Shown here: positions 3 through 10,000 of the stretch, piece by piece
How positions within the stretch are numbered: position 1 is the first letter of the stretch
Layout: each line of letters starts with the position of its first letter
Origin: Escherichia coli
Lineage (GTDB): Bacteria; Pseudomonadota; Gammaproteobacteria; Enterobacterales; Enterobacteriaceae
Assembly: GCF_003790525.1 (NCBI RefSeq)
Contig: NZ_CP033635.1
DNA length: 64,000 nucleotides
Direction: 5' to 3' (one strand)
Position numbers and translations under genes: made by a program
Notes under the pieces: generated by a model
The model's input: only the letters and a program-made list of their open reading frames with translations
Told to the model about the DNA's origin: nothing
The model's database searches: none

Positions 3-272
3 GAAAACCTGATTGTTAATCGCCTCGCCATCCCACATTGCTGGAGCGAACAGGAGCGACGTTTTCGTGGATTTTTTATTACCCTCGCCCAACCGGTTGA
101 GGTGAATAACGAAGTAGTTAACCATGTACTGATCGCCTGTGCCGCCGCCGATGCGCGTCATGAGCTAAAAATATTTAGCTATCTGGCAAGCGTATTGTGC
201 CAGCATCCGGCAGAGGTTATTGCCGGGTTAACAGGATATGAGGCATTTATGGAGTTACTTCACAAGGGGTGA
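3..272 (+). CDS. C-terminal fragment (about 89 codons; 5' end outside window) of an ORF ending at TGA 270-272; by position probably the frv-operon regulator gene that neighbours yiiG
   Basis: Frame-3 open from window edge to stop; absent from ORF track because it has no in-window start; identity rests on remembered synteny only. Confidence 0.35.
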   Translation, partial: ENLIVNRLAIPHCWSEQERRFRGFFITLAQPVEVNNEVVNHVLIACAAADARHELKIFSYLASVLCQHPAEVIAGLTGYEAFMELLHKG

Positions 273-275
273 ACT

Positions 276-300
276 GTGTCGGATGCGCCGCATCCGACAC
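276..300. terminator. Inverted repeat GTGTCGGATGCG / CGCATCCGACAC between convergent ORFs
   Basis: Palindrome read directly; no strong U-run, so terminator function is uncertain. Confidence 0.35.
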
Positions 301-327
301 TGCATTTATCACCAAAATCAAAAACGT

Positions 328-1383
328 TTAACGCAAGCTATTATAGTCATCGACCATTTCGTTGTACTCGCGTAACGCTCGTGGAAATGAGTCGTCGACC
401 ATCCAGCTTGTGTTTGCATCCTGAAGTTGCTCTTTATCCCAGTCAGAATACGGAACTTTATCTCTGACGCGGCGAACATATTTTTTAGCCTCGAGTTGAT
501 ACTGGTCTGCCGAATTAATGAACGAGAAATTCATACCGCCTTTATCCGCTTCTTTGGCCTGCGCCACCAGCGTTTCCAGTTCAGACACTTTCTTCATTGC
601 CGCATCAACATCAAACTTCTCTTGCGATATCAGGTTATTAATTTGTTTCGCTGAAATCATGACTGCCAGAGAATAGTAGTGGAATGTTTTCCCTTCTCTT
701 TCTTCAATATTTTTCAGTTCCGCAAGCTGACGCTTATCATTAATTTCCTGGATCGCCGCATGATAAGATTCGGCTACAGGTTCAAAGGCTTCCAGATTTT
801 TTAAGAATGTCTGGTGCAGCGTTTTCCCTTTCGCAAACGCATCGTCTTTATAATTTTCCTGGGTGTAATATTTATCCATTTCGTTAATGGTATTACCCAA
901 CGCCACGGCAGCATCGATATAACTCACCGCTACGCCATCAATAGGTTGCAGCGCAGGCGTTAACGCCACAGCACTTTTTACGCCTTTTTCACACTCAGCG
1001 AGGCTGGATTCACTAAAGCCGTAGATGCCATAAACAGTACTCTCTTTACCGGTAGGCCCCTGTTTAAAATCTTTCAGCCAGTCAGCATAACGCGCCAGAC
1101 TGCGCTGTACCGGGATCTGTAACTTGTTGTAGCACTTGATATAGACATCCATTTTTTCGTCGAAAACCGCTTGTTCATCGACCACCGGTTGGGCAGGAGT
1201 TTCAGGTTTAACTTCTGCTTTTGCAACGGGAGCTTCAGCAGGTTTCGCTTCAGGAGCTGGTGCGGCAGGTTGACTATTGGCAGGCGGGGGCGTTTCTGTT
1301 TCGGCTTTTTTATCATCACAACCCGTGAGACCGAGGGCCATGATGGCGACTATAATAGCGGAAGATAATAAATTCCTTTTCAT
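328..1383 (-). CDS. yiiG: YiiG-family lipoprotein (DUF3829-like)
   Basis: 351-aa ORF; signal peptide with lipobox LTGC; Pro/Ala/Glu-rich linker; expected position relative to fdhD. Confidence 0.85.
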   Translation of the reverse strand: MKRNLLSSAIIVAIMALGLTGCDDKKAETETPPPANSQPAAPAPEAKPAEAPVAKAEVKPETPAQPVVDEQAVFDEKMDVYIKCYNKLQIPVQRSLARYADWLKDFKQGPTGKESTVYGIYGFSESSLAECEKGVKSAVALTPALQPIDGVAVSYIDAAVALGNTINEMDKYYTQENYKDDAFAKGKTLHQTFLKNLEAFEPVAESYHAAIQEINDKRQLAELKNIEEREGKTFHYYSLAVMISAKQINNLISQEKFDVDAAMKKVSELETLVAQAKEADKGGMNFSFINSADQYQLEAKKYVRRVRDKVPYSDWDKEQLQDANTSWMVDDSFPRALREYNEMVDDYNSLR

Positions 1384-1577
1384 TTAATTGCCTTATAAAT
1401 ATTTAGATAAGAGAGATAATATTTTAAATGAAAAAATGATCCGTCACTATACACATTTTGCTTATAAACAAACCGAAATCATTCACACTCCGAATAATTC
1501 CTGCGACTTAAAATATAAATCGCAGGAAGCGATTTTAATTACCCGCTCTACCACTGGCGCAGGATATAAACTCTCAC

Positions 1578-3884
1578 CTACATTCCATAACGTTCAGAAA
1601 TAGCAGCATGCTTCTCTTCATTCGCCCCGGCTTCTTTGGCAAGACGCCACCAGCACAACGGATGTTCCCAGTCAGCGGTCAATTCGTGCAAGGTCTTATC
1701 GATATCACCTTTAGAAACTGAACGCGGCGCGCTGATAACAAAGTAGAACGCGGGCAGCGGCTGTGCATCTTCTCCCTGCTGGCTGTCCGTTAACGTATAG
1801 TCCTCGTTACTGTTGCTCCAGTAGTACCAGTTTCGTTCACGGAGCGCCTCACGGAAGGCATTAAACTGTTCTTCACCAGGCATGACACCTTCGCAGAACC
1901 AGGACTCGCCGTACTCAGTCGGGATAATGGTTTGCAGGCAGGCATAAAGTGGCGTGAAATTCTTCCGTTCTTCCTCATCCTCTGGTTGGGTGTTCAATAT
2001 TTCCGCATCGAATACCACAACTTCATCAACATGTTGCGGATAATCGGTCCGGTAAGTTGGCTCAATGATCCTTGCTGTTACCGGCCCAATACGTTGAGCA
2101 TAGTAATAGCGGTATTCATAATTTTCCCGGAAGCGAATGTTTAGCAGTCCCCATTTTTCGTCGATAAAACCTTCACCTTCCGTAAGTTCGATTTCCAGTT
2201 CAGCTGCAATAGCACGAACCAAATCCCATTGTTGCAGGATGCTGGCGGTCGCCATGATATCCCACTGGATATTACGAATATCTTCTTCACGGCTAATCAT
2301 CAGTTGCTGCAATTGTTGTAAATAATCCAGCTGTCGATCCCAGGCTTCCTGTTTTTGTGCTGCCCAGGAGCACATGCGATAAACGCCGATCCACTCACGC
2401 CCTTTTTCGTTTTGCAGCAACTGGTGCCCAATCGACTCGAGTTCACTCCAGTCTTCCTGTTGGTTGATCACTCGCGCACGGAACCACAAGGCCATATGTA
2501 GCAGCCCCGCCTGTTCATACTGCTTCGCCAGGTGCTCAATGGTTTGCAGATCGTCACGGTGGAGCAATAAATCCAACAGATCGAAGCAAAGACCATTATC
2601 TTCCTGGATGTGGCTTTCGACGTAGCGTTGCAGAAGTTCAATCGACTCATCAATCGCATTACAGGCGTTTAACGCATTGACCAGTTTGCCCAGCAATTCC
2701 GCATCATCTGGCGCGTTCAGGTAAGCGCGGCGGAATGTTTCGACGTCTTTTTCTGGATCTGGCTGCGTTTCTTCATCGCTATTTTCAGGTACTTCTACAA
2801 CCGGACGAGCAAGCAACTCTGCTTCTTTGGCGGCGATTTTTTCACTCAGTTCGAGAAACTCACGATCAACCCCCAGTAACACGCGTAATTTTGGCATGTG
2901 TCGCTGGGCCAGTTTCATCGCTATTTTGGCAACCCAGACGGATTCACGCTCCAGCGCCAGGGTAATTTGCAGTTTCGCCAGATCAACCACTTTGCGGTGC
3001 GCTCCGGCCTGCGAGCGGTGCTCCAGCATTTTTTGGATGATGCGCGCCAGTTGCCAGTTGTTTCTTTGTGGATGACGGGGAAGTAACACAGTAATGATTT
3101 TCAGCCATGACCCCCATGAATGGGGAGTCAGATCTGACCAACGCGGTAATTCCTCCCAGACTTCTTCGTCCTGCCCGCATAACGCCATGATGTACAGTTT
3201 TTTGAGGTGATTACTAATGCGGTCGCGGCCCCAGTAATCATTGGCTTCTGTCAGCTCATCAATCAGTATGCGTGCTTCATCATAACGCTGAAGTTCAATC
3301 AGAATATCGGCACGAGTATAAAGTAATGCATCAATATCATCTTCCCCGGCTGCTTTAACTGCGTCGATTTGTCGATCCAGATAAGCCAGTGCCTCCTCTA
3401 TTCTTTTGGAATCTATCAGTGCACTGGCATATTCAGTGGACAAACACTGAAAACAGCTCCAGGTCGGATCAATCCGCGCGATGGTTTCTTCACATACCGC
3501 CATACGTTCATTCGCCCAGCCAGGTGCATCAATATTTTCGTAGCAGGCGGATAAATCCTGGGTAACGCAGATAGATTGTGGGCAATCTTTTGTCTCTTCC
3601 CGGTGCGCTTTTTCAAACAGCGCTACCACGTCTGGCAGCACCTTTTCACCTTCTTCATAGTTAGTCAGGCGATGACGCATTTCCCAGTGACCAATAAATA
3701 TTTCCAGCCACGGATTTTTTGCCACCTGGGTAAGTGCTTTTACTTCAGGTAACAGCGAATCGCACTTTTCCATTTGCAGGTGCATAACGCCTTCCGAATA
3801 ATCATCGATAAGTTGCGGAATATACTCCTGCCCGGCATCGCGTAACTCCTTAGTATATTTGTGATACCACTCCCATATATCCAT
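1578..3884 (-). CDS. 768-aa acidic, Trp-rich, predicted alpha-helical repeat (TPR-like) protein of unknown function; distal gene of the accessory Hsp90-like operon
   Basis: Long uninterrupted ORF; its ATG (3882-3884) lies 1 nt after the TAA (3886-3888) of the upstream gene, with SD-like AAGGAA just upstream; no catalytic motif recognised. Confidence 0.75.
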   Translation of the reverse strand: MDIWEWYHKYTKELRDAGQEYIPQLIDDYSEGVMHLQMEKCDSLLPEVKALTQVAKNPWLEIFIGHWEMRHRLTNYEEGEKVLPDVVALFEKAHREETKDCPQSICVTQDLSACYENIDAPGWANERMAVCEETIARIDPTWSCFQCLSTEYASALIDSKRIEEALAYLDRQIDAVKAAGEDDIDALLYTRADILIELQRYDEARILIDELTEANDYWGRDRISNHLKKLYIMALCGQDEEVWEELPRWSDLTPHSWGSWLKIITVLLPRHPQRNNWQLARIIQKMLEHRSQAGAHRKVVDLAKLQITLALERESVWVAKIAMKLAQRHMPKLRVLLGVDREFLELSEKIAAKEAELLARPVVEVPENSDEETQPDPEKDVETFRRAYLNAPDDAELLGKLVNALNACNAIDESIELLQRYVESHIQEDNGLCFDLLDLLLHRDDLQTIEHLAKQYEQAGLLHMALWFRARVINQQEDWSELESIGHQLLQNEKGREWIGVYRMCSWAAQKQEAWDRQLDYLQQLQQLMISREEDIRNIQWDIMATASILQQWDLVRAIAAELEIELTEGEGFIDEKWGLLNIRFRENYEYRYYYAQRIGPVTARIIEPTYRTDYPQHVDEVVVFDAEILNTQPEDEEERKNFTPLYACLQTIIPTEYGESWFCEGVMPGEEQFNAFREALRERNWYYWSNSNEDYTLTDSQQGEDAQPLPAFYFVISAPRSVSKGDIDKTLHELTADWEHPLCWWRLAKEAGANEEKHAAISERYGM

Positions 3885-3885
3885 T

Positions 3886-5721
3886 TTATTTTCCTTGATT
3901 AATTAAGACAGGAATAACCTGAGTAAAATCTTCCAGTGCCTGGTGTAAATCCCACTGCTGTTCTTTATTACCGCTGGAGCACAAAATCACTTTCAGCGAT
4001 TTTAATAAGCGTAATGCCGCTGCGGGCTGTTGCTGGTGTTGTAATGCCGTCACCAGTTGCATGATGCAAGGGTTATTAAGGTTGATGTATAAACTTGAGG
4101 TTTTCGTTTTTTGGATTTGTGAAGTAAATTGCCGCGCCAGCATTAACGCTGCGGTGCTGATGCGTTTATCTGCGTCATCCTGTTCGAGAATTTGTTTTAA
4201 TTCTGCTTCGCGGTCTGGCGTAACCACTAACGGTAAAACGGCGGGTTCGAAGCGGGAGATAATTAATTGCTCGCCATCGCAGAGATGCTCTTCCAGATAA
4301 GCTACCTGCTCTTCGGGTAATTCCGCCAGGCTGAACAACTGCTCATTACCTGTTTGCGTACCGACTTCGACAATCCGGCAGTGATATAACAGCGCCCAGC
4401 GACGTAAAAATGGCACGACGGCATAGCGATCGCCACGGGCAACGGGCCGTTGCAGAATGTGGAACAACATCTCTTCAAAACCGCCGTCGCGGCTTAACAG
4501 AATATGAATGCTGTTATTAACGCGTAAATCCTTCGCCAGCAACGCCCCTTTTGACGTTGGCACCTGCAAGCGATCTTTGAGCAAATCAAACAGACGGTCA
4601 TCACATAATGCCGCACCGAGCAACGCTTCGTTGTGGCGCATTAATACACGCCGCCAGATTTCTGGCTGATTTTGTGCGAGATCGGACAAACCAGAAATCA
4701 GCGCCTCTTTTAACGCCTCCTGCACCGCAACCCAGGTTTCGTCCCGCTGGAGATCTTCCCGGCTCGCCGTAGGCGTTAGTTTCGATGACTCAATCACGCC
4801 GCCAATAAATCCGGCCCAGGGAGGTAACAACTCACGCGCTTCATCATCCAGTAACATACCGCGCAAAAACAGCGACAGGTTGCGGTTATCGCTGGTGCCG
4901 TAGGTTGCGCCATCCTGAATCCATAAAATCCCAACCGCGTCGCTCATCCCCACGGGCACCACCGGAATGGTGCAAATCGGTTCGAAGGAGGATTCAAACT
5001 GGGCGGCAAAGGCGAGATTTTTACGCTGTACCAGCGCGCGGTGCATGGTTACGCCTTCGGGGGCAACTTCACGCCACGGTGGTTGAAGTTTATTTACCGG
5101 CTCGCTGGCATCGCCGACATAGACCGGTTCGTGCAGCAATATACAGTAGCGGGAAAGAACGCGGTTCAGCAAATTGTTACTCGCCAGATGGCTGTACTCT
5201 TCTTTGAGCGTCAGAATCACCTGCGTACCCGTTTCCGAGGACTGATGCGGCGTAACGGTATATTTTTGCCCGTCGGTAGAGTGGTATTTCCAGCTCTGAT
5301 CCGGCGTTTGCCAGGATGTGGTCAACACCGTGACCTCTTTCGCCAACACAAAGGCCGACAAAAAACCGAGGCCGAACATACCAATTAAACCGGTGTTGTC
5401 ATCCTGCTGGCGCAACATTCGGGTATAACCCACGCCTACTGTCGCCAGGAAGCCGTGAATTTCACTTTCTGTCAGTCCAGCGCCAGTATCGCTAATAGTG
5501 ATAGTGGACTTCGCCACGTCTGCCACCACACGAATCGCGTTATCCTTTGGTGCATCGGGCTGCTCAATCCTGCGGCGAACGATCGCATCATGGCCGTTCT
5601 GCACCAGCTCGCGCACGGCAACCACGGGAGTGGAGTAAAGATGCTTACTGAGCACCTCAATTAAGCCGTTTAAATTAACTTCTGTAGAATATGAACTACC
5701 AGGTAACTGTAATGTACTCAT
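3886..5721 (-). CDS. Divergent Hsp90/HtpG-family (GHKL) ATPase paralog, 611 aa
   Basis: Bergerat-fold motifs in order: E38xxxN42xxD45 (RELVQNGHDA), D78TGAG (ISDTGAGL), G114MFGLGFLSAF; middle-domain signature LPPWAGFIGGVIESSKLTPTASRE resembles Hsp90 FxRGVVDSEDLPLNISRE; shorter than canonical HtpG. Confidence 0.8.
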   Translation of the reverse strand: MSTLQLPGSSYSTEVNLNGLIEVLSKHLYSTPVVAVRELVQNGHDAIVRRRIEQPDAPKDNAIRVVADVAKSTITISDTGAGLTESEIHGFLATVGVGYTRMLRQQDDNTGLIGMFGLGFLSAFVLAKEVTVLTTSWQTPDQSWKYHSTDGQKYTVTPHQSSETGTQVILTLKEEYSHLASNNLLNRVLSRYCILLHEPVYVGDASEPVNKLQPPWREVAPEGVTMHRALVQRKNLAFAAQFESSFEPICTIPVVPVGMSDAVGILWIQDGATYGTSDNRNLSLFLRGMLLDDEARELLPPWAGFIGGVIESSKLTPTASREDLQRDETWVAVQEALKEALISGLSDLAQNQPEIWRRVLMRHNEALLGAALCDDRLFDLLKDRLQVPTSKGALLAKDLRVNNSIHILLSRDGGFEEMLFHILQRPVARGDRYAVVPFLRRWALLYHCRIVEVGTQTGNEQLFSLAELPEEQVAYLEEHLCDGEQLIISRFEPAVLPLVVTPDREAELKQILEQDDADKRISTAALMLARQFTSQIQKTKTSSLYINLNNPCIMQLVTALQHQQQPAAALRLLKSLKVILCSSGNKEQQWDLHQALEDFTQVIPVLINQGK

Positions 5722-6030
5722 TTTTCAATACTCATAATCCATCACCTACTATTGAAAATACATCGCTGTTTTTACAACCGGTGCAAGGTTTGTTATTTCA
5801 TTCACTCATCGGAAACATTTATTTATTGACGCGATGATTAAAACAAAATGTCTTATATAAATAATGATTAATTCTTAAAGGATTAATGCGACTGGAGTAT
5901 ATCGATATAACCCGGAGTTAACGAGATAATTTCTTGTGGTGAAATTATTATTTGAATGCTGAATAATATATTGAGGATTATTTAATAGAAAAATAAAACC
6001 GCAATCCAGAATCAGAATTGCGGTATTTCT

Positions 6031-6867
6031 TTAATTATGAATCAAACGCTGCGGATGGGTATAAACCGTTGCCCGACCCGGTTTACAAAAACCTACCAGT
6101 GTCAGATTACAGCGCTCAGCCACTTCTACAGCAAGCGTGGTCGCGGCAGACACCGCAAACAAAATCTCTACGCCGCACATCGCTGACTTTTGCACCATTT
6201 CATAACTGGCACGGCTGGAAACCAGCACCGCACCTTGCTGCCAGCTTTCCCCTTCTTGTGACCGGCGGCCTAACAGTTTGTCCAGCGCCACATGGCGACC
6301 CACGTCTTCATGCCCGCCGACCAGTTCGCCAGATGGCAACATCCAGGCGGCGGCGTGAGTACAACCGGTCAGTTGCCCCACTGGCTGAAAATCATTGAGA
6401 TGACGTAATGCATCATCCAGTTTGTTGAGATCAAACGTCTGGGTGAACGGTAGCGGCTGCACCGGTTTTCCGATGTCATTAAGTTGCTCCACGCCGCACA
6501 CGCCACATCCCGTACGTCCCGCCAGTGCCCGGCGACGCTCCTTCAACCCCATAAAGCGGCGGCTGGAAAGCTCAATTTGCACTTCCAGACCATTACAGGA
6601 AGGAACGACATCCATACCGAAGATATCGCGCGGACTTTCGATAATCCCCTCGGAAAGCGAAAAACCGAGCGCAAAGTACTCAAGGTCTTTGGGTGACGCC
6701 ATCATCACTACATGCGAAATGCCGTTGTAGACCAGCGCAACGGGAACCTCTTCCGCCACCTCATCTAACCGTGGGTGTTGTAAATCATCACGCCGCCATA
6801 ACTCAATTTGACGAACACCTGTGACACTTGTCACATTTTCGATTTCTTTTTGCTGTGTTTTTTTCAC
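6031..6867 (-). CDS. fdhD: FdhD, sulfurtransferase required for formate dehydrogenase activity
   Basis: 278-aa ORF with characteristic FdhD sequence; divergent from fdoG. Confidence 0.9.
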
Positions 6868-7060
6868 TTTCTCTTAACCAGATAAGAACACACACACCAA
6901 CATTATGGTATTCTGTTACAAACCCTTCCTGGATGGAGGGAAATTGAGCCAATTCTGGACCTTTGCGGCCCCTTCCGCAAAGAAAAATAACTCCCACTCC
7001 CTGCACACGCAGCAAGCGAATGTAAATGGGACGTGACAATGTCGAAACAAGGAGCAATCC

Positions 7061-10000
7061 ATGCAGGTCAGCAGAAGGCAGTTCTTTAAGATCTGCGCTG
7101 GCGGTATGGCAGGCACCACGGCAGCGGCACTGGGTTTTGCACCCAGCGTAGCACTCGCGGAAACCCGGCAGTATAAACTGCTGCGCACCCGCGAAACCCG
7201 TAATACCTGCACCTATTGTTCCGTAGGCTGTGGGCTGTTGATGTACAGCCTCGGTGACGGAGCAAAAAACGCCAAAGCATCTATCTTCCATATCGAAGGT
7301 GACCCGGATCACCCGGTCAACCGCGGAGCACTTTGTCCGAAAGGCGCTGGCCTGGTGGATTTCATCCACTCCGAAAGCCGCCTGAAGTTTCCGGAATACC
7401 GTGCGCCAGGTTCTGATAAATGGCAACAAATCAGTTGGGAAGAGGCGTTTGATCGCATCGCCAAACTGATGAAAGAAGACCGCGATGCGAACTACATTGC
7501 GCAAAACGCCGAAGGCGTGACTGTTAACCGCTGGCTCTCCACCGGGATGCTGTGTGCTTCCGCGTCGAGCAACGAAACCGGCTATTTAACACAAAAATTC
7601 TCCCGCGCGCTGGGTATGCTCGCGGTCGACAACCAGGCGCGTGTCTGACACGGACCAACGGTAGCAAGTCTTGCTCCAACATTTGGTCGCGGTGCGATGA
7701 CCAACCACTGGGTCGACATCAAGAATGCCAACCTCGTCGTGGTGATGGGCGGTAACGCCGCTGAAGCTCACCCGGTCGGGTTCCGCTGGGCGATGGAAGC
7801 CAAAATTCACAACGGCGCGAAGCTGATTGTGATCGATCCTCGCTTTACACGTACGGCGGCGGTGGCTGACTACTATGCCCCTATTCGTTCCGGGACTGAC
7901 ATTGCTTTCCTGTCAGGCGTATTGCTGTACCTGCTGAACAATGAAAAATTCAACCGCGAATACACCGAAGCCTATACCAACGCCAGCCTGATCGTGCGTG
8001 AGGATTACGGCTTTGAAGATGGCCTGTTCACCGGCTACGACGCGGAAAAACGCAAGTACGATAAATCCAGCTGGACCTACGAGCTGGACGAAAACGGCTT
8101 CGCCAAACGCGATACCACGCTGCAACATCCGCGCTGCGTGTGGAACTTGCTGAAACAGCACGTTTCCCGTTATACGCCAGATGTGGTTGAAAACATCTGT
8201 GGTACGCCGAAAGACGCGTTCCTGAAAGTCTGCGAATACATCGCAGAGACCAGTGCTCACGATAAAACTGCCTCGTTCCTTTACGCGCTCGGCTGGACGC
8301 AACACTCCATTGGTGCGCAAAACATTCGTACGATGGCGATGATCCAGCTGCTGCTCGGCAACATGGGGATGGCAGGCGGCGGCGTTAACGCCCTGCGCGG
8401 TCACTCCAATATTCAGGGGCTGACCGACCTGGGGCTGCTGTCGCAGAGTCTGCCAGGTTACATGACGTTGCCAAGCGAGAAGCAGACCGATCTGCAAACT
8501 TACCTTACCGCCAACACGCCGAAACCACTGCTGGAAGGCCAGGTTAACTACTGGGGCAATTACCCGAAATTCTTCGTCTCCATGATGAAGGCCTTCTTTG
8601 GTGATAAAGCGACGGCGGAAAATAACTGGGGCTTTGACTGGTTGCCGAAGTGGGATAAAGGCTACGACGTCCTGCAATACTTCGAGATGATGAAAGAGGG
8701 CAAGGTCAATGGCTATATCTGCCAGGGCTTTAACCCTGTTGCCTCATTCCCGAACAAAAACAAAGTGATCGGCTGTCTGTCGAAACTGAAGTTCCTCGTG
8801 ACCATCGACCCGCTGAACACTGAAACCTCTAACTTCTGGCAGAACCACGGTGAACTGAACGAAGTTGACTCGTCGAAGATCCAGACCGAAGTGTTCCGTC
8901 TGCCATCGACCTGCTTCGCGGAAGAGAACGGTTCAATCGTCAACTCTGGCCGCTGGTTGCAGTGGCACTGGAAAGGTGCGGACGCCCCGGGGATTGCGCT
9001 GACTGACGGCGAGATCCTCTCCGGTATCTTCCTGCGCTTGCGCAAGATGTATGCCGAACAGGGTGGCGCGAACCCGGACCAGGTGCTGAACATGACCTGG
9101 AACTACGCCATTCCGCATGAGCCATCTTCAGAAGAAGTGGCGATGGAGAGTAACGGTAAGGCGCTGGCCGATATTACCGATCCGGCAACCGGTGCGGTTA
9201 TCGTCAAGAAAGGCCAACAACTTAGCTCGTTCGCCCAACTGCGCGATGACGGTACAACCTCCTGTGGCTGCTGGATTTTCGCCGGTAGCTGGACGCCGGA
9301 AGGCAACCAGATGGCGCGTCGTGATAACGCCGATCCGTCTGGCCTCGGTAACACGCTGGGCTGGGCATGGGCATGGCCGCTTAACCGCCGCATTCTGTAT
9401 AACCGCGCCTCCGCAGATCCGCAGGGTAACCCATGGGATCCGAAGCGTCAGTTGCTGAAATGGGACGGCACTAAGTGGACCGGCTGGGATATTCCGGATT
9501 ACAGCGCAGCGCCTCCGGGCAGTGGCGTCGGGCCGTTTATCATGCAGCAGGAAGGCATGGGGCGTCTGTTTGCCCTCGATAAGATGGCGGAAGGTCCGTT
9601 CCCGGAACACTACGAGCCGTTTGAAACGCCGCTGGGAACTAACCCGCTGCATCCAAACGTTATCTCGAACCCGGCTGCGCGAATCTTTAAAGACGACGCC
9701 GAAGCATTGGGTAAAGCCGATAAGTTCCCGTATGTCGGAACCACCTATCGTCTGACCGAGCACTTCCACTACTGGACCAAACACGCGCTGTTGAACGCGA
9801 TTTTGCAACCAGAGCAGTTTGTGGAAATCGGGGAGTCGCTGGCGAATAAACTTGGCATTGCCCAGGGCGATACTGTGAAAGTCTCCTCCAACCGTGGCTA
9901 TATCAAAGCCAAAGCGGTAGTGACCAAACGTATTCGCACGCTGAAAGCAAACGGCAAAGATATCGATACCATCGGTATTCCGATTCACTGGGGCTATGAA

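What the first reader, a model, noticed from the sequence alone, without database searches (positions are those of the whole stretch)
5722..6030. Scarless insert: AT-rich leader of the accessory operon, no mobility genes or repeats at either border
The ~300-bp region upstream of the Hsp90-like gene is strongly AT-rich with candidate -10/-35 elements and abuts an fdhD terminator hairpin (CCGCAATCCAGAATCAGAATTGCGG, about 5996-6028). Neither this border nor the yiiG side (1384-1577, with an imperfect inverted repeat around 1497-1530) shows an integrase, transposase, tRNA or obvious direct repeats. The operon's base composition looks similar to the core genome. Inference: an old or recombination-mediated acquisition, or differential loss in K-12-like lineages, rather than a recent mobile-element insertion.
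Basis: partly seen in the sequence, partly recalled or inferred. Interest (0 to 1): 0.3.

Follow-up and report, generated by a model that had tools for sequence, protein, structure and literature searches.

The report
Old operon leader with border scar
The AT-rich stretch is the conserved control region of an old two-gene Hsp90-like operon that most Escherichia species carry between fdhD and yiiG and about 95% of E. coli lack, and its far border carries a decayed copy of the end of fdhD, so it is not scarless.

Summary
The window is E. coli SMS-3-5. The 309-bp leader is the most AT-rich stretch in the 64 kb (GC 0.294). The fdhD terminator hairpin lies at 5999-6023 and a second hairpin at 1498-1528. 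There is no integrase, transposase or tRNA, and the operon's composition matches the core genome.

Two points fail. Promoter-like hexamers are no more frequent than chance. The insert is not scarless: between hairpin 1 and the stop codon of the TPR gene lies a degenerate copy of the last 37-57 nt of fdhD (window 1539-1577), in register with the K-12-type fdhD end.

The same operon sits at the same site in E. fergusonii, E. marmotae, E. ruysiae, E. whittamii and a further Escherichia species. A divergent Escherichia lineage keeps a remnant of the leader. The operon lies directly downstream of fdhD in Superficieibacter and about 3 kb downstream of it in one Salmonella strain. In E. coli, 254 of 5426 complete genomes carry it and 5146 have one shared K-12-type junction.

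Best reading: an ancient recombinational insertion, inherited vertically, then probably lost secondarily in most E. coli. The leader is more conserved than neighbouring synonymous sites. This is an ordinary but neat piece of locus history; interest is low to moderate.

The parts
328..1383 (-). yiiG (DUF3829 lipoprotein-family gene). It lies downstream of the operon here, and a yiiG ortholog also follows the operon in Salmonella Infantis and in one Superficieibacter genome.
   Evidence: Pfam DUF3829, E 3.6e-102; RefSeq annotation; linkage in other genera.
1384..1497 (-). Upstream region of yiiG, homologous to the yiiG-proximal part of the 152-bp fdhD-yiiG spacer of K-12-type genomes.
   Evidence: blastn aligns the empty site L002 2001-3369 to window 194-1571; multiple alignment.
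1498..1528 (-). Hairpin 1. It is the same hairpin that follows fdhD directly in K-12-type genomes. Here it follows the TPR gene and probably terminates the operon, although its U-tract is weak.
   Evidence: Inverted repeat I19; terminator-like site; dG -22.3, z -5.6, against -19.9 for the K-12 homolog; alignment.
1539..1577 (-). Pseudo-fdhD 3' end (psi): a degenerate copy of the last 36 nt plus stop codon of a K-12-type fdhD. It abuts the TPR stop codon (1578-1580) on one side and the 3'UTR and hairpin 1 on the other.
   Evidence: 24/39 ungapped matches, right-anchored on the TAA, binomial p 1.3e-5; semiglobal score exceeded by 1 of 2000 shuffles. Best nhmmer hits of a psi profile in 112 kb are the fdhD 3' ends of three loci. 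Long (56-58 nt) versions occur in other alleles.
1578..3884 (-). 768-aa partner protein: an all-helical TPR-like solenoid (about residues 125-565) plus an unassigned C-terminal domain.
   Evidence: Pfam TPR_19; AlphaFold model with mean pLDDT 69, and Foldseek hits only to TPR superhelices; no PADLOC, NCBIfam or PDB sequence family.
3886..5721 (-). 611-aa Hsp90-family paralog (GHKL ATPase N-domain plus Hsp90 middle domain). One nucleotide separates its stop codon from the partner gene's ATG.
   Evidence: Pfam HATPase_c_3 and HSP90; NCBIfam 'HSP90 family protein' at 288 bits, below its cut-off; TRAP1/HtpG chains at E 5e-30; junction sequence.
5718..5747 (-). Strong Shine-Dalgarno AGGTGA (5747-5742) followed by a 5-codon upstream ORF, ATGAGTATTGAAAAATGA (MSIEK*, 5735-5718). 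Its stop overlaps the Hsp90-paralog start codon (ATGA).
   Evidence: Sequence. Invariant in seven Escherichia alleles. Conserved as MSVEK* in Salmonella. Fused in frame in Superficieibacter.
5722..5839 (-). Proximal leader core, the part conserved between Escherichia and Salmonella. It presumably holds the promoter and 5'UTR; the transcription start is not mapped.
   Evidence: Local alignment score 113.5 against a shuffle maximum of 44.5; coordinates; no significant RNA structure (z -0.22).
5840..5984 (-). Distal leader. It is specific to Escherichia and 96.5-98% identical between E. coli, E. fergusonii and E. ruysiae. It contains the 12-nt palindrome TATATCGATATA (5898-5909).
   Evidence: A remnant corresponding to window 5930-5821 survives in the operon-less locus L013.
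5985..6023 (-). fdhD intrinsic terminator: hairpin 2 (5999-6023) plus U-run (5998-5985).
   Evidence: Conserved in all operon-bearing Escherichia and in the operon-less L013.
6031..6090 (-). Functional fdhD 3' end (...QRLIHN*), the proximal copy of the repeat.
   Evidence: Identical to the K-12-type end up to ...CGTTTGA, then different.
6031..6867 (-). fdhD (278 aa here, 277 aa in K-12-type genomes).
   Evidence: Pfam FdhD-NarQ; annotations.

Best explanation
Window 5722-6030 has two parts. The first is the intrinsic terminator of fdhD (hairpin 2 plus U-run, 5985-6023). The second is the roughly 260-bp 5' control region of a two-gene operon: an Hsp90-family paralog and a TPR-solenoid partner. 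Translation of the first gene is probably coupled to a 5-codon upstream ORF that has a strong ribosome-binding site (inferred).

The operon is an old chromosomal resident of the genus Escherichia, not a recent mobile-element insertion (shown).

It reached this exact position by insertion into the last roughly 57 nt of fdhD, in a genome that already had fdhD-hairpin 1-yiiG. The incoming DNA brought a replacement fdhD 3' end (...QRLIHN*), hairpin 2, the leader and the two genes. The original fdhD 3' end was displaced to the far border, where it survives as a decayed pseudo-copy (1539-1577). The scar is shown; the mechanism is inferred. The most likely mechanism is recombination with homology on the fdhD side only and an illegitimate join right after the TPR stop codon, from a donor in which the operon already lay directly downstream of fdhD, as in Superficieibacter.

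The arrangement was then inherited vertically with frequent allelic recombination. The K-12-type arrangement found in about 95% of E. coli most likely arose secondarily, by an in-register deletion between the functional fdhD end and the pseudo-copy. That deletion put hairpin 1 back behind fdhD and gave K-12-type FdhD its unusual ...QRLSN* end (inferred).
For: Anatomy:
- Terminator.
- The two genes are tightly packed, with a 1-nt gap.
- Shine-Dalgarno plus upstream ORF are conserved in Escherichia and Salmonella.

Leader under constraint:
- It is 96.5-98% identical between E. coli, E. fergusonii and E. ruysiae, and at least 95% identical in all 254 E. coli carriers (lowest row listed 96.1%).
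- Third-codon positions of the adjoining genes are only 72-92% identical, and the whole operon falls to 92%.

Age and vertical descent:
- The order fdhD-leader-operon-yiiG is the same in E. fergusonii, E. marmotae and E. ruysiae and in E. whittamii and Escherichia sp. MOD1-EC7003.
- The operon-less Escherichia lineage L013 keeps hairpin 2 and about 110 nt of leader (score 88 against a shuffle maximum of 34.5).
- Third-position identity of the operon genes (0.75-0.92) matches that of fdhD (0.72-0.88) for the same genome pairs, and first and second positions are 0.92-0.997 identical, which indicates purifying selection.
- Composition is core-like.
- In E. coli the operon is always chromosomal and single-copy.
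- The operon lies in the same neighbourhood in Salmonella Infantis (Hsp90 paralog 91% aa) and Superficieibacter (87-88% aa).

Scar:
-. It is present in both a 'short' and a 'long' form and is always collinear with hairpin 1 and the K-12-type stop codon.

Secondary loss:
- One junction is shared by 5146 of 5426 E. coli genomes.
- The K-12-type spacer nests inside the 'long-scar' allele family. It is 95.9% identical to an operon-bearing E. coli B2 allele, 87.7-89.0% to other species and 75-79% to the short family.
- Its 3'UTR, TAATTAAAATAAGT, is identical to those of E. whittamii and E. coli strain 100117 (L098), and differs at one base in 2013C-4282 (L094).
- The fdhD sequence is identical up to ...CGTTTGA and then breaks abruptly.
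- FdhD ends in ...QRLI-x-x in 20 of the 22 non-Escherichia FdhD C-termini read (the other two ...QRLT-x-x), but in ...QRLSN only in K-12-type E. coli.
- The locus demonstrably undergoes microhomology deletions. Clone D i2 lost the yiiG 5' half between two AACGCCAC copies. E2348/69 lost yiiG altogether.
Against: - The pseudo-copy is now only 45-62% identical to fdhD. An in-register crossover with it is hard to obtain today, so the deletion would have to be old. That weakens the contrast with the rival in which the K-12-type allele is a direct survivor.
- No extant pseudo-copy carries the exact K-12 tail AGCAATTAA.
- Empty B2 alleles have B2-type flanks within about 20 nt of a K-12-type junction, which requires very short recombination tracts.
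- Only one or two genomes per non-coli species were examined. Three of those species were found by searching with the operon's own protein, so an empty allele in them is not excluded.
- The species names of L005-L010 come from the sources' names for the identical protein.
- No promoter was identified. No transcript or protein data were available.
- The insertion mechanism cannot be read from a scar this old.
Confidence: 0.6

Rival explanations
1. The K-12-type arrangement (fdhD-hairpin 1-yiiG) is the original, never-inserted allele. It has persisted alongside the operon-bearing allele since before the Escherichia radiation as a long-lived presence/absence polymorphism and now predominates in E. 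coli. The operon-bearing state is derived, and there was no secondary loss.
For: - The pseudo-copy shows that a K-12-like arrangement is older than the operon-bearing one.
- In every allele the pseudo-copy has the K-12-type length, with two codons after Leu.
- An in-register 'crossover' needs no explanation if none occurred.
- The locus does carry ancient haplotypes shared across species: the short and long scar families are only 72-79% identical in the spacer, and both occur within E. coli.
Against: - This needs the empty allele to survive at least five speciation events and yet appear only in E. coli among the lineages sampled.
- The K-12-type spacer nests within the long-scar family next to an E. 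coli B2 operon-bearing allele, instead of lying outside all operon-bearing alleles.
- The fdhD sequence adjacent to the junction shows no excess divergence: 98.5% to SMS-3-5 over the last 200 nt.
Confidence: 0.25
2. The operon entered on a small integrative element through a site-specific recombinase that targets the 3' end of fdhD. The functional end and the pseudo-copy are attR and attL, and the integrase was later lost.
For: - The architecture is the classical one for islands that target the 3' end of a gene: a replacement 3' end at the proximal border and the displaced original end at the distal border.
- The same region is occupied in three genera.
- Homologs at 57-60% identity occur on Xanthomonas and Pseudomonas plasmids.
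Against: - There is no room for a decayed integrase. The 4.45 kb between the repeats is filled by two intact genes, a 1-nt gap and the 309-bp leader, and the pseudo-copy abuts the TPR stop codon.
- No identical core is conserved between the two copies across alleles. The shared exact string varies from 5 to 8 nt.
- There is no pseudo-copy in Superficieibacter or Salmonella, and in Salmonella the operon is not adjacent to fdhD.
- Composition is core-like.
Confidence: 0.08
3. This is a recent horizontal insertion of a mobile element into the SMS-3-5 lineage.
For: Only 254 of 5426 E. coli genomes carry it. The leader is strikingly AT-rich, as in many acquired genes.
Against: - It occupies the same site in at least six Escherichia lineages, with divergence equal to that of core flanks.
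- Three allele classes within E. coli differ by up to 8%.
- There are no mobility genes or tRNA and no compositional deviation.
- It is never on E. coli plasmids and was not found in any genuine phage record.
Confidence: 0.02
4. The similarity of 1539-1577 to the fdhD end is chance, and the insert is truly scarless.
For: The region is short and AT-biased. For two alleles (E. whittamii, MOD1-EC7003) the gapped-alignment test is not significant on its own (282 and 650 of 2000 shuffles).
Against: - The register is fixed by hairpin 1 and the stop codon. It gives 24/39 (p 1e-5) in two alleles and 26-29 of 56-58 (p 3e-4 to 3e-3) in four others.
- The top hits of a profile search fall on the fdhD 3' ends of three different loci.
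- blastn itself extends the empty-site alignment 33 nt into fdhD at the left border.
Confidence: 0.05

Closest known systems
Genomic islands and integrative elements that insert into the 3' end of a tRNA or protein-coding gene and carry a replacement 3' end (attL/attR direct repeats)
   Same: The target gene stays intact through a substituted 3' end plus terminator. The displaced original 3' end remains as a direct repeat at the distal border. Presence is variable among strains.
   Different: There is no integrase and no space for a decayed one. The cargo is only 4.45 kb and two genes. Composition is core-like. No identical repeat core is conserved. The arrangement is fixed across a genus rather than strain-specific.
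Homology-facilitated illegitimate recombination (one-sided homologous anchor plus illegitimate join), as described for foreign DNA uptake in Acinetobacter and Streptococcus. This comparison is from my own knowledge and was not tested here.
   Same: It predicts exactly this product: homologous replacement on the fdhD side, an abrupt non-homologous join at the other end (right after the TPR stop codon), and a retained piece of recipient sequence.
   Different: The mechanism has not been demonstrated for this locus or this genus. The junction is too old to show its microhomology.
Deletion between short direct repeats or microhomologies in enterobacterial chromosomes
   Same: The K-12-type junction is collinear with both repeat copies. 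A second deletion at the same locus, between two AACGCCAC copies, is seen in clone D i2.
   Different: The repeats are now far too diverged for homologous recombination, so the timing is uncertain.
Bacterial Hsp90 paralogs outside the HtpG (hsp90A) group: hsp90B and hsp90C of Chen et al. 2006 (PMC1525184) and Press et al. 2013 (PMC3708813)
   Same: The first gene has the GHKL N-domain and Hsp90 middle domain and matches TRAP1/HtpG structures at E 5e-30. It is a second, non-HtpG Hsp90 in the genome.
   Different: Assignment to the B or C group was not tested. It scores below NCBIfam's cut-off for 'HSP90 family protein'. The obligatory TPR partner, and the yiiG linkage seen so far in three enterobacterial genera, are not described in those papers.
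AT-rich, H-NS-type silenced promoter regions of accessory genes in enterobacteria (from my own knowledge, not tested here)
   Same: The leader is an extremely AT-rich upstream region (GC 0.294) in a genome of 50% GC.
   Different: The downstream genes are not AT-rich. No binding data exist. The leader is strongly conserved rather than fast-evolving.

Membership tests
Integrase-mediated genomic island at the 3' end of a gene | Tyrosine or serine recombinase gene at one border | tested here: not met
   Only two ORFs lie between the borders (an Hsp90 paralog and a TPR protein), with no recombinase domain. No ORF remnant lies in the spacers.
Integrase-mediated genomic island at the 3' end of a gene | Flanking direct repeats derived from the target gene's 3' end | tested here: met
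   The pseudo-fdhD end at 1539-1577 pairs with the functional end at 6031-6090. It is degenerate, and no identical core is conserved.
Integrase-mediated genomic island at the 3' end of a gene | Atypical base composition or codon usage | tested here: not met
   GC and GC3 lie within 1 SD of the window's long ORFs.
IS or transposon insertion | Transposase, terminal inverted repeats and a target-site duplication of fixed length | tested here: not met
   There is no transposase. No terminal inverted repeats appear among the reported repeats. The TTTAATTA pair at 1534/6030 shrinks to 5 nt in other alleles and is part of the homologous stop-codon region.
Intrinsic (Rho-independent) terminator | GC-rich stem-loop immediately followed by a U-run, just downstream of a stop codon | tested here: met
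   Hairpin 2 (5999-6023) has 10 base pairs, dG -15.1 and z -4.2, and is followed by UUUUAUUUUU. It starts 7 nt after the fdhD stop codon. Hairpin 1 has a strong stem but a weak U-tract.
Sigma-70 promoter | -35 and -10 hexamers with 16-18 nt spacing on the operon's strand, more frequent than expected by chance | tested here: inconclusive
   None at 9/12. At 8/12 there are 12 sites against 7.8 +/- 3.5 in shuffles. The transcription start is unmapped.
Structured cis-regulatory RNA (riboswitch, thermometer) | Rfam match, or a fold more stable than shuffles | tested here: not met
   No Rfam match in the leader. The proximal 151 nt fold with z -0.22.
Hsp90 family | GHKL/Bergerat ATPase N-domain followed by the Hsp90 middle domain | tested here: met
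   Pfam HATPase_c_3 (residues 32-174) and HSP90 (274-353), both above their cut-offs. TRAP1/HtpG chains align over residues 10-359 at E 5e-30.
Known anti-phage defence systems (PADLOC-DB v2) | Match of both proteins to the models of one system | tested here: not met
   Only weak N-terminal ATPase hits to TmtA (E 6e-6) for the first protein, and none for the partner.
Homology-facilitated illegitimate recombination product | Homologous replacement on one side, a non-homologous join on the other, and a retained recipient segment | tested here: inconclusive
   The architecture fits. The donor, the crossover in fdhD and the junction microhomology cannot be recovered from alleles this diverged.

The most novel reading that the evidence does not exclude
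The locus records a loss, regain and loss cycle, and the functional unit is larger than the operon.

The block Hsp90 paralog-TPR partner-YiiG lipoprotein is conserved in three genera (Escherichia, Salmonella, Superficieibacter). It would be one dedicated chaperone, co-chaperone and client (or envelope-stress) system. Its expression would be set by an unusually constrained AT-rich leader and by a 5-codon upstream ORF coupled to the start codon.

In addition, the last two codons of K-12 FdhD, a much-studied protein, would be encoded by DNA that spent a long period as a non-functional pseudo-copy.
Probability: 0.2. Interest if true: 0.5.

Novelty: new member of a known kind. Interest (0 to 1): 0.3.

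Why it matters
- It shows how a 'scarless' accessory operon in a core-gene neighbourhood can be dated and polarised from raw sequence. A 39-nt fossil of the neighbouring gene's end gives the order of events, and outgroup genomes show that the common laboratory arrangement (K-12) is probably the derived one.
- It explains why K-12-type FdhD ends in ...QRLSN while other enterobacteria end in ...QRLI-x-x.
- It marks the leader (5722-5984) as constrained regulatory DNA for an uncharacterised second Hsp90 that is carried by clinically important lineages (ST131, phylogroup F). That gives a defined target for promoter and upstream-ORF experiments.
- None of this overturns current understanding.

Tried and rejected
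- **Defence system.** PADLOC gave only weak ATPase hits and nothing for the partner.
- **Structured RNA in the leader.** Rfam found nothing there, and folding is no better than shuffles.
- **Sigma-70 promoter.** Not above chance. Hand inspection for sigma-32-like or extended -10 motifs gave nothing conserved between Escherichia, E. marmotae and Salmonella.
- **Target-site duplication.** The 8-nt TTTAATTA pair is not conserved across alleles.
- **Pseudo-copy in other genera.** Absent downstream of the TPR gene in Superficieibacter and Salmonella.
- **Precursor of the K-12 tail.** Five further E. coli alleles (L093, L094, L095, L098, L099) were read to find a pseudo-copy with exactly the K-12 tail. 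None has it.
- **Which fdhD downstream flank is orthologous to other genera.** The test (hairpin 1 side against hairpin 2 side) gave an ambiguous alignment.
- **Cluster look-up of FdhD variants.** Uninformative about non-coli species.
- **Structure of the TPR partner.** Only generic TPR superhelix matches; the C-terminal domain is modelled with low confidence. Relaxed Pfam scans of its ends found nothing.
- **Literature.** No paper in the library holds both 'fdhD' and 'yiiG'.
Full report
**What the window is.** Window 1200-6300 is 100% identical to the E. coli SMS-3-5 chromosome. All relevant genes are on the minus strand:
- yiiG, 328-1383
- a 194-bp spacer
- a 768-aa ORF, 1578-3884
- a 611-aa ORF, 3886-5721
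- the 309-bp region of the finding, 5722-6030
- fdhD, 6031-6867

fdoG follows on the plus strand. The 611-aa protein belongs to the Hsp90 family: Pfam HATPase_c_3 and HSP90, and TRAP1/HtpG structures at E 5e-30. The 768-aa protein is a long TPR-type helical solenoid with an unassigned C-terminal domain. One nucleotide separates the two genes. The pairing is conserved in distant relatives: a homolog at 47% identity whose partner overlaps it by 4 nt, and a Xanthomonas plasmid pair at 58%.

**Checking the observation.**
- The leader has GC 0.294 and is the only 309-nt stretch in the 64 kb at or below 0.30.
With its U-run it is a canonical intrinsic terminator starting 7 nt after the fdhD stop codon.
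- The inverted repeat at 1498-1528 is real and stable.
- There is no tRNA, no mobility domain and no ORF remnant in the spacers.
- The leader is single-copy in every genome that has it.
- Operon GC and GC3 lie within one standard deviation of the window's long ORFs.
- The claimed promoter hexamers fail. No site at 9/12 lies on the operon's strand. At 8/12 there are 12 sites against 7.8 +/- 3.5 in shuffles, and more on the wrong strand.

**The insert is not scarless.** I aligned an 'empty' E. coli locus (L002, fdhD and yiiG 152 bp apart) to the window. The left alignment runs through the whole spacer and hairpin 1 and continues 33 nt into the empty locus's fdhD. The right alignment starts 5 nt before that gene's stop codon. 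So 38 nt of the empty site match both borders.

Hairpin 1 of the window is the hairpin that directly follows fdhD in K-12-type genomes. Between it and the TPR stop codon lies a decayed copy of the fdhD 3' end.
- In the register fixed by the hairpin and the stop-like TAA, SMS-3-5 and E. fergusonii match the K-12-type end at 24 of 39 positions (p about 1e-5).
- Escherichia sp. MOD1-EC7003, which carries the same short form, matches at 21 of 39 (p 6e-4).
- The E. coli B2, E. marmotae, E. ruysiae and E. whittamii alleles carry a longer version of 56-58 nt, with 26-29 matches (p 3e-4 to 3e-3). It still reads ...PQRLN(Y/C)* in E. coli B2 and E. marmotae.
- A profile of these copies, searched against 112 kb, gives its best hits at the fdhD 3' ends of three separate loci.
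- The copy abuts the TPR stop codon directly.
- TTTAATTA occurs only at 1534 and 6030 in the first 7 kb. It is part of the homologous stop-codon region and shrinks to 5 nt in other alleles, so it is not a target-site duplication.

**Distribution.**
- *Within E. coli.* The operon is present in 254 of 5426 complete genomes, always chromosomal and single-copy. There are three allele classes. 77 genomes are at least 99% identical to the window. 14 are 95-99% identical, including 2013C-4282 (96.9%). 163 are 90-95% identical, including O127:H6 (94.8%), SE15 and ST131. One K-12-type junction is shared by 5146 genomes.
- *Other Escherichia.* The identical gene order occurs in genomes whose identical protein the sources name E. 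fergusonii, E. marmotae and E. ruysiae. It also occurs in the GTDB representatives of E. whittamii and Escherichia sp. MOD1-EC7003.
- *A lineage that lost the operon differently.* Locus L013 is labelled E. coli but is about 91% identical to E. coli across sodA-kdgT, and its rha genes are deleted. It lacks the operon, yet keeps ...QRLIAN*, hairpin 2 and about 110 nt of leader. It therefore lost the operon through a different deletion.
- *Other genera.* Two Superficieibacter species carry the operon directly downstream of fdhD (87-88% and 73% aa identity for the two proteins), one of them followed by a yiiG homolog. Salmonella Infantis SARB27 carries it about 3 kb downstream of fdhD (91% and 76% aa). 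There it is preceded by about 140 nt homologous to the proximal leader and followed by a yiiG ortholog. The other 74 enterobacterial species representatives have neither the operon nor yiiG within up to 7 kb (less where the contig ends) downstream of fdhD. In several of them fdhD faces frvR directly.

**Age.** Third-codon-position identity between SMS-3-5 and the other alleles is 0.78-0.92 for the Hsp90 paralog, 0.75-0.78 for the TPR gene and 0.72-0.88 for fdhD. First and second positions are 0.92-0.997 identical. So the operon has diverged in step with its core flank, under purifying selection. A recent mobile-element insertion is excluded.

**The leader is constrained.** It is 96.5-98% identical between E. 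coli, E. fergusonii and E. ruysiae, and at least 95% identical in all 254 E. coli carriers (the lowest row listed is 96.1%). The operon as a whole falls to 92%, and neighbouring synonymous sites to 72-92%.
- The last 60 nt are almost invariant across all seven Escherichia alleles. They hold AGGTGA, a 6-nt spacer and the mini-ORF ATGAGTATTGAAAAATGA, whose stop overlaps the annotated start codon.
- Salmonella keeps this arrangement (MSVEK*). Superficieibacter has one extra base that fuses the two frames.
- E. marmotae has a 145-nt REP-type insertion 45 nt upstream of the start codon.
- No conserved RNA structure or Rfam family was found.
- The promoter remains unmapped. I infer that it lies in 5722-5984.

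**History.** The pseudo-copy is collinear with hairpin 1 and has the K-12-type length (two codons after Leu) in every allele. An arrangement with fdhD directly followed by hairpin 1 and yiiG must therefore predate the operon-bearing arrangement.

The incoming DNA supplied a new fdhD end. That end (...QRLIHN*) has the ...QRLI-x-x pattern typical of other genera, whereas K-12-type ...QRLSN* is an outlier. It also supplied hairpin 2, the leader and the two genes, ending exactly at the TPR stop codon. There is no room for an integrase. I therefore favour recombination anchored by homology in fdhD with an illegitimate join at the far end, from a donor that already had fdhD next to the operon. An integrase-mediated event is a weaker alternative.

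For the K-12-type state there are two readings: secondary in-register deletion, or direct survival of the pre-insertion allele.

Points for deletion:
- the genus-wide distribution of the operon
- the nesting of the K-12-type spacer inside the long-scar family, next to an operon-bearing E. coli B2 allele (95.9%, against 87.7-89.0% and 75-79%)
- a 3'UTR identical to the E. whittamii and E. coli strain 100117 alleles, and one base different from 2013C-4282
- no excess divergence of fdhD next to the junction
- proven microhomology deletions at the same locus

Points against deletion:
- the present degeneracy of the pseudo-copy, which makes a late in-register event unlikely
- the absence of an exact precursor tail
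- clear evidence that this locus carries old haplotypes shared across species

I put secondary loss at about 0.6 and survival at about 0.25.

**Comparison with known kinds.** The architecture mimics an island that targets the 3' end of a gene, but it fails the integrase and composition tests. It is not an IS or transposon. It matches no PADLOC defence system. The first gene belongs to the little-studied non-HtpG bacterial Hsp90 paralogs (PMC1525184, PMC3708813). No paper in the library holds both 'fdhD' and 'yiiG'.

**Verdict.** The finding is largely real and largely ordinary: an old, vertically inherited accessory operon with a constrained AT-rich leader. Two corrections apply. The border does carry a scar, and the promoter claim is unsupported. 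I rate it a new member of a known kind, with interest about 0.3.

Noticed in passing
window 5718-5747 (minus strand): A strong Shine-Dalgarno sequence (AGGTGA) precedes a 5-codon upstream ORF (MSIEK*) whose TGA overlaps the ATG of the Hsp90 paralog. The paralog's own start has no good Shine-Dalgarno sequence. The arrangement is conserved in all Escherichia alleles and in Salmonella (MSVEK*), and is fused in frame in Superficieibacter. This suggests translational coupling.
   Followed up: partly
L007 about 5811-5956 (E. marmotae leader): A 145-nt insertion carrying two REP-type palindromes (gtcggatgcggcg...cgcctcatccgac and aggcctgataagcgcagcgcatcaggc) sits 45 nt upstream of the operon's start codon. 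Elsewhere the E. marmotae leader is only 76% identical to the other alleles.
   Followed up: partly
L003 7364-7918 (E. coli clone D i2, B2): The site is empty and also has a separate 478-bp deletion that removes the yiiG 5' half and promoter. The deletion lies exactly between two AACGCCAC copies (L002 2763 and 3241) and leaves a yiiG pseudogene.
   Followed up: yes
L093 1502-1600 (E. coli O127:H6, derived from E2348/69): The operon is present, but the pseudo-copy, hairpin 1 and the whole of yiiG are missing. The TPR gene lies 97 bp from frvR, with a REP-like sequence in between.
   Followed up: partly
L096 5152-13835 (Salmonella Infantis SARB27): Three DUF3829 (YiiG-family) paralogs surround the operon. 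The record's notes give LT2 locus tags for the flanking genes but none for the operon, so it may also be present in some Salmonella strains and absent from others.
   Followed up: partly
window 1578-3884, and L099 1601-3907: The TPR partner evolves much faster than the Hsp90 paralog (about 90% against 98-99% aa identity across Escherichia). The SMS-3-5 allele is about equally distant from all the others. In strain LP5-1 the gene is annotated as a pseudogene with an internal stop.
   Followed up: no
window 6892-7090 (plus strand): A sub-threshold Rfam match to the FdoG-1 5'UTR thermometer (RF02778; 32 bits against a gathering score of 50; E 3.7e-5) lies in the fdhD-fdoG divergent region.
   Followed up: no
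window 276-300: A REP-like perfect palindrome (gtgtcggatgcgccgcatccgacac) lies in the 55-bp gap between frvR and yiiG.
   Followed up: no
window 5898-5909: The perfect 12-nt palindrome TATATCGATATA in the distal leader is conserved in E. coli, E. fergusonii and E. ruysiae but not in E. marmotae. It could be an operator or chance in AT-rich DNA.
   Followed up: no
L097 10834-13812 (Xanthomonas vasicola plasmid pXVH29): The distant Hsp90-paralog/TPR pair is preceded by an HTH regulator. It is followed by STAS-domain proteins and an anti-sigma-factor-type kinase, a stressosome-like gene set.
   Followed up: no
H139 (NZ_CP103562.1) and H99 (NZ_OX637959.1): Genomes labelled O25b:H4-ST131 occur both with the operon and with the K-12-type junction, so presence varies within a single sequence type.
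   Followed up: no
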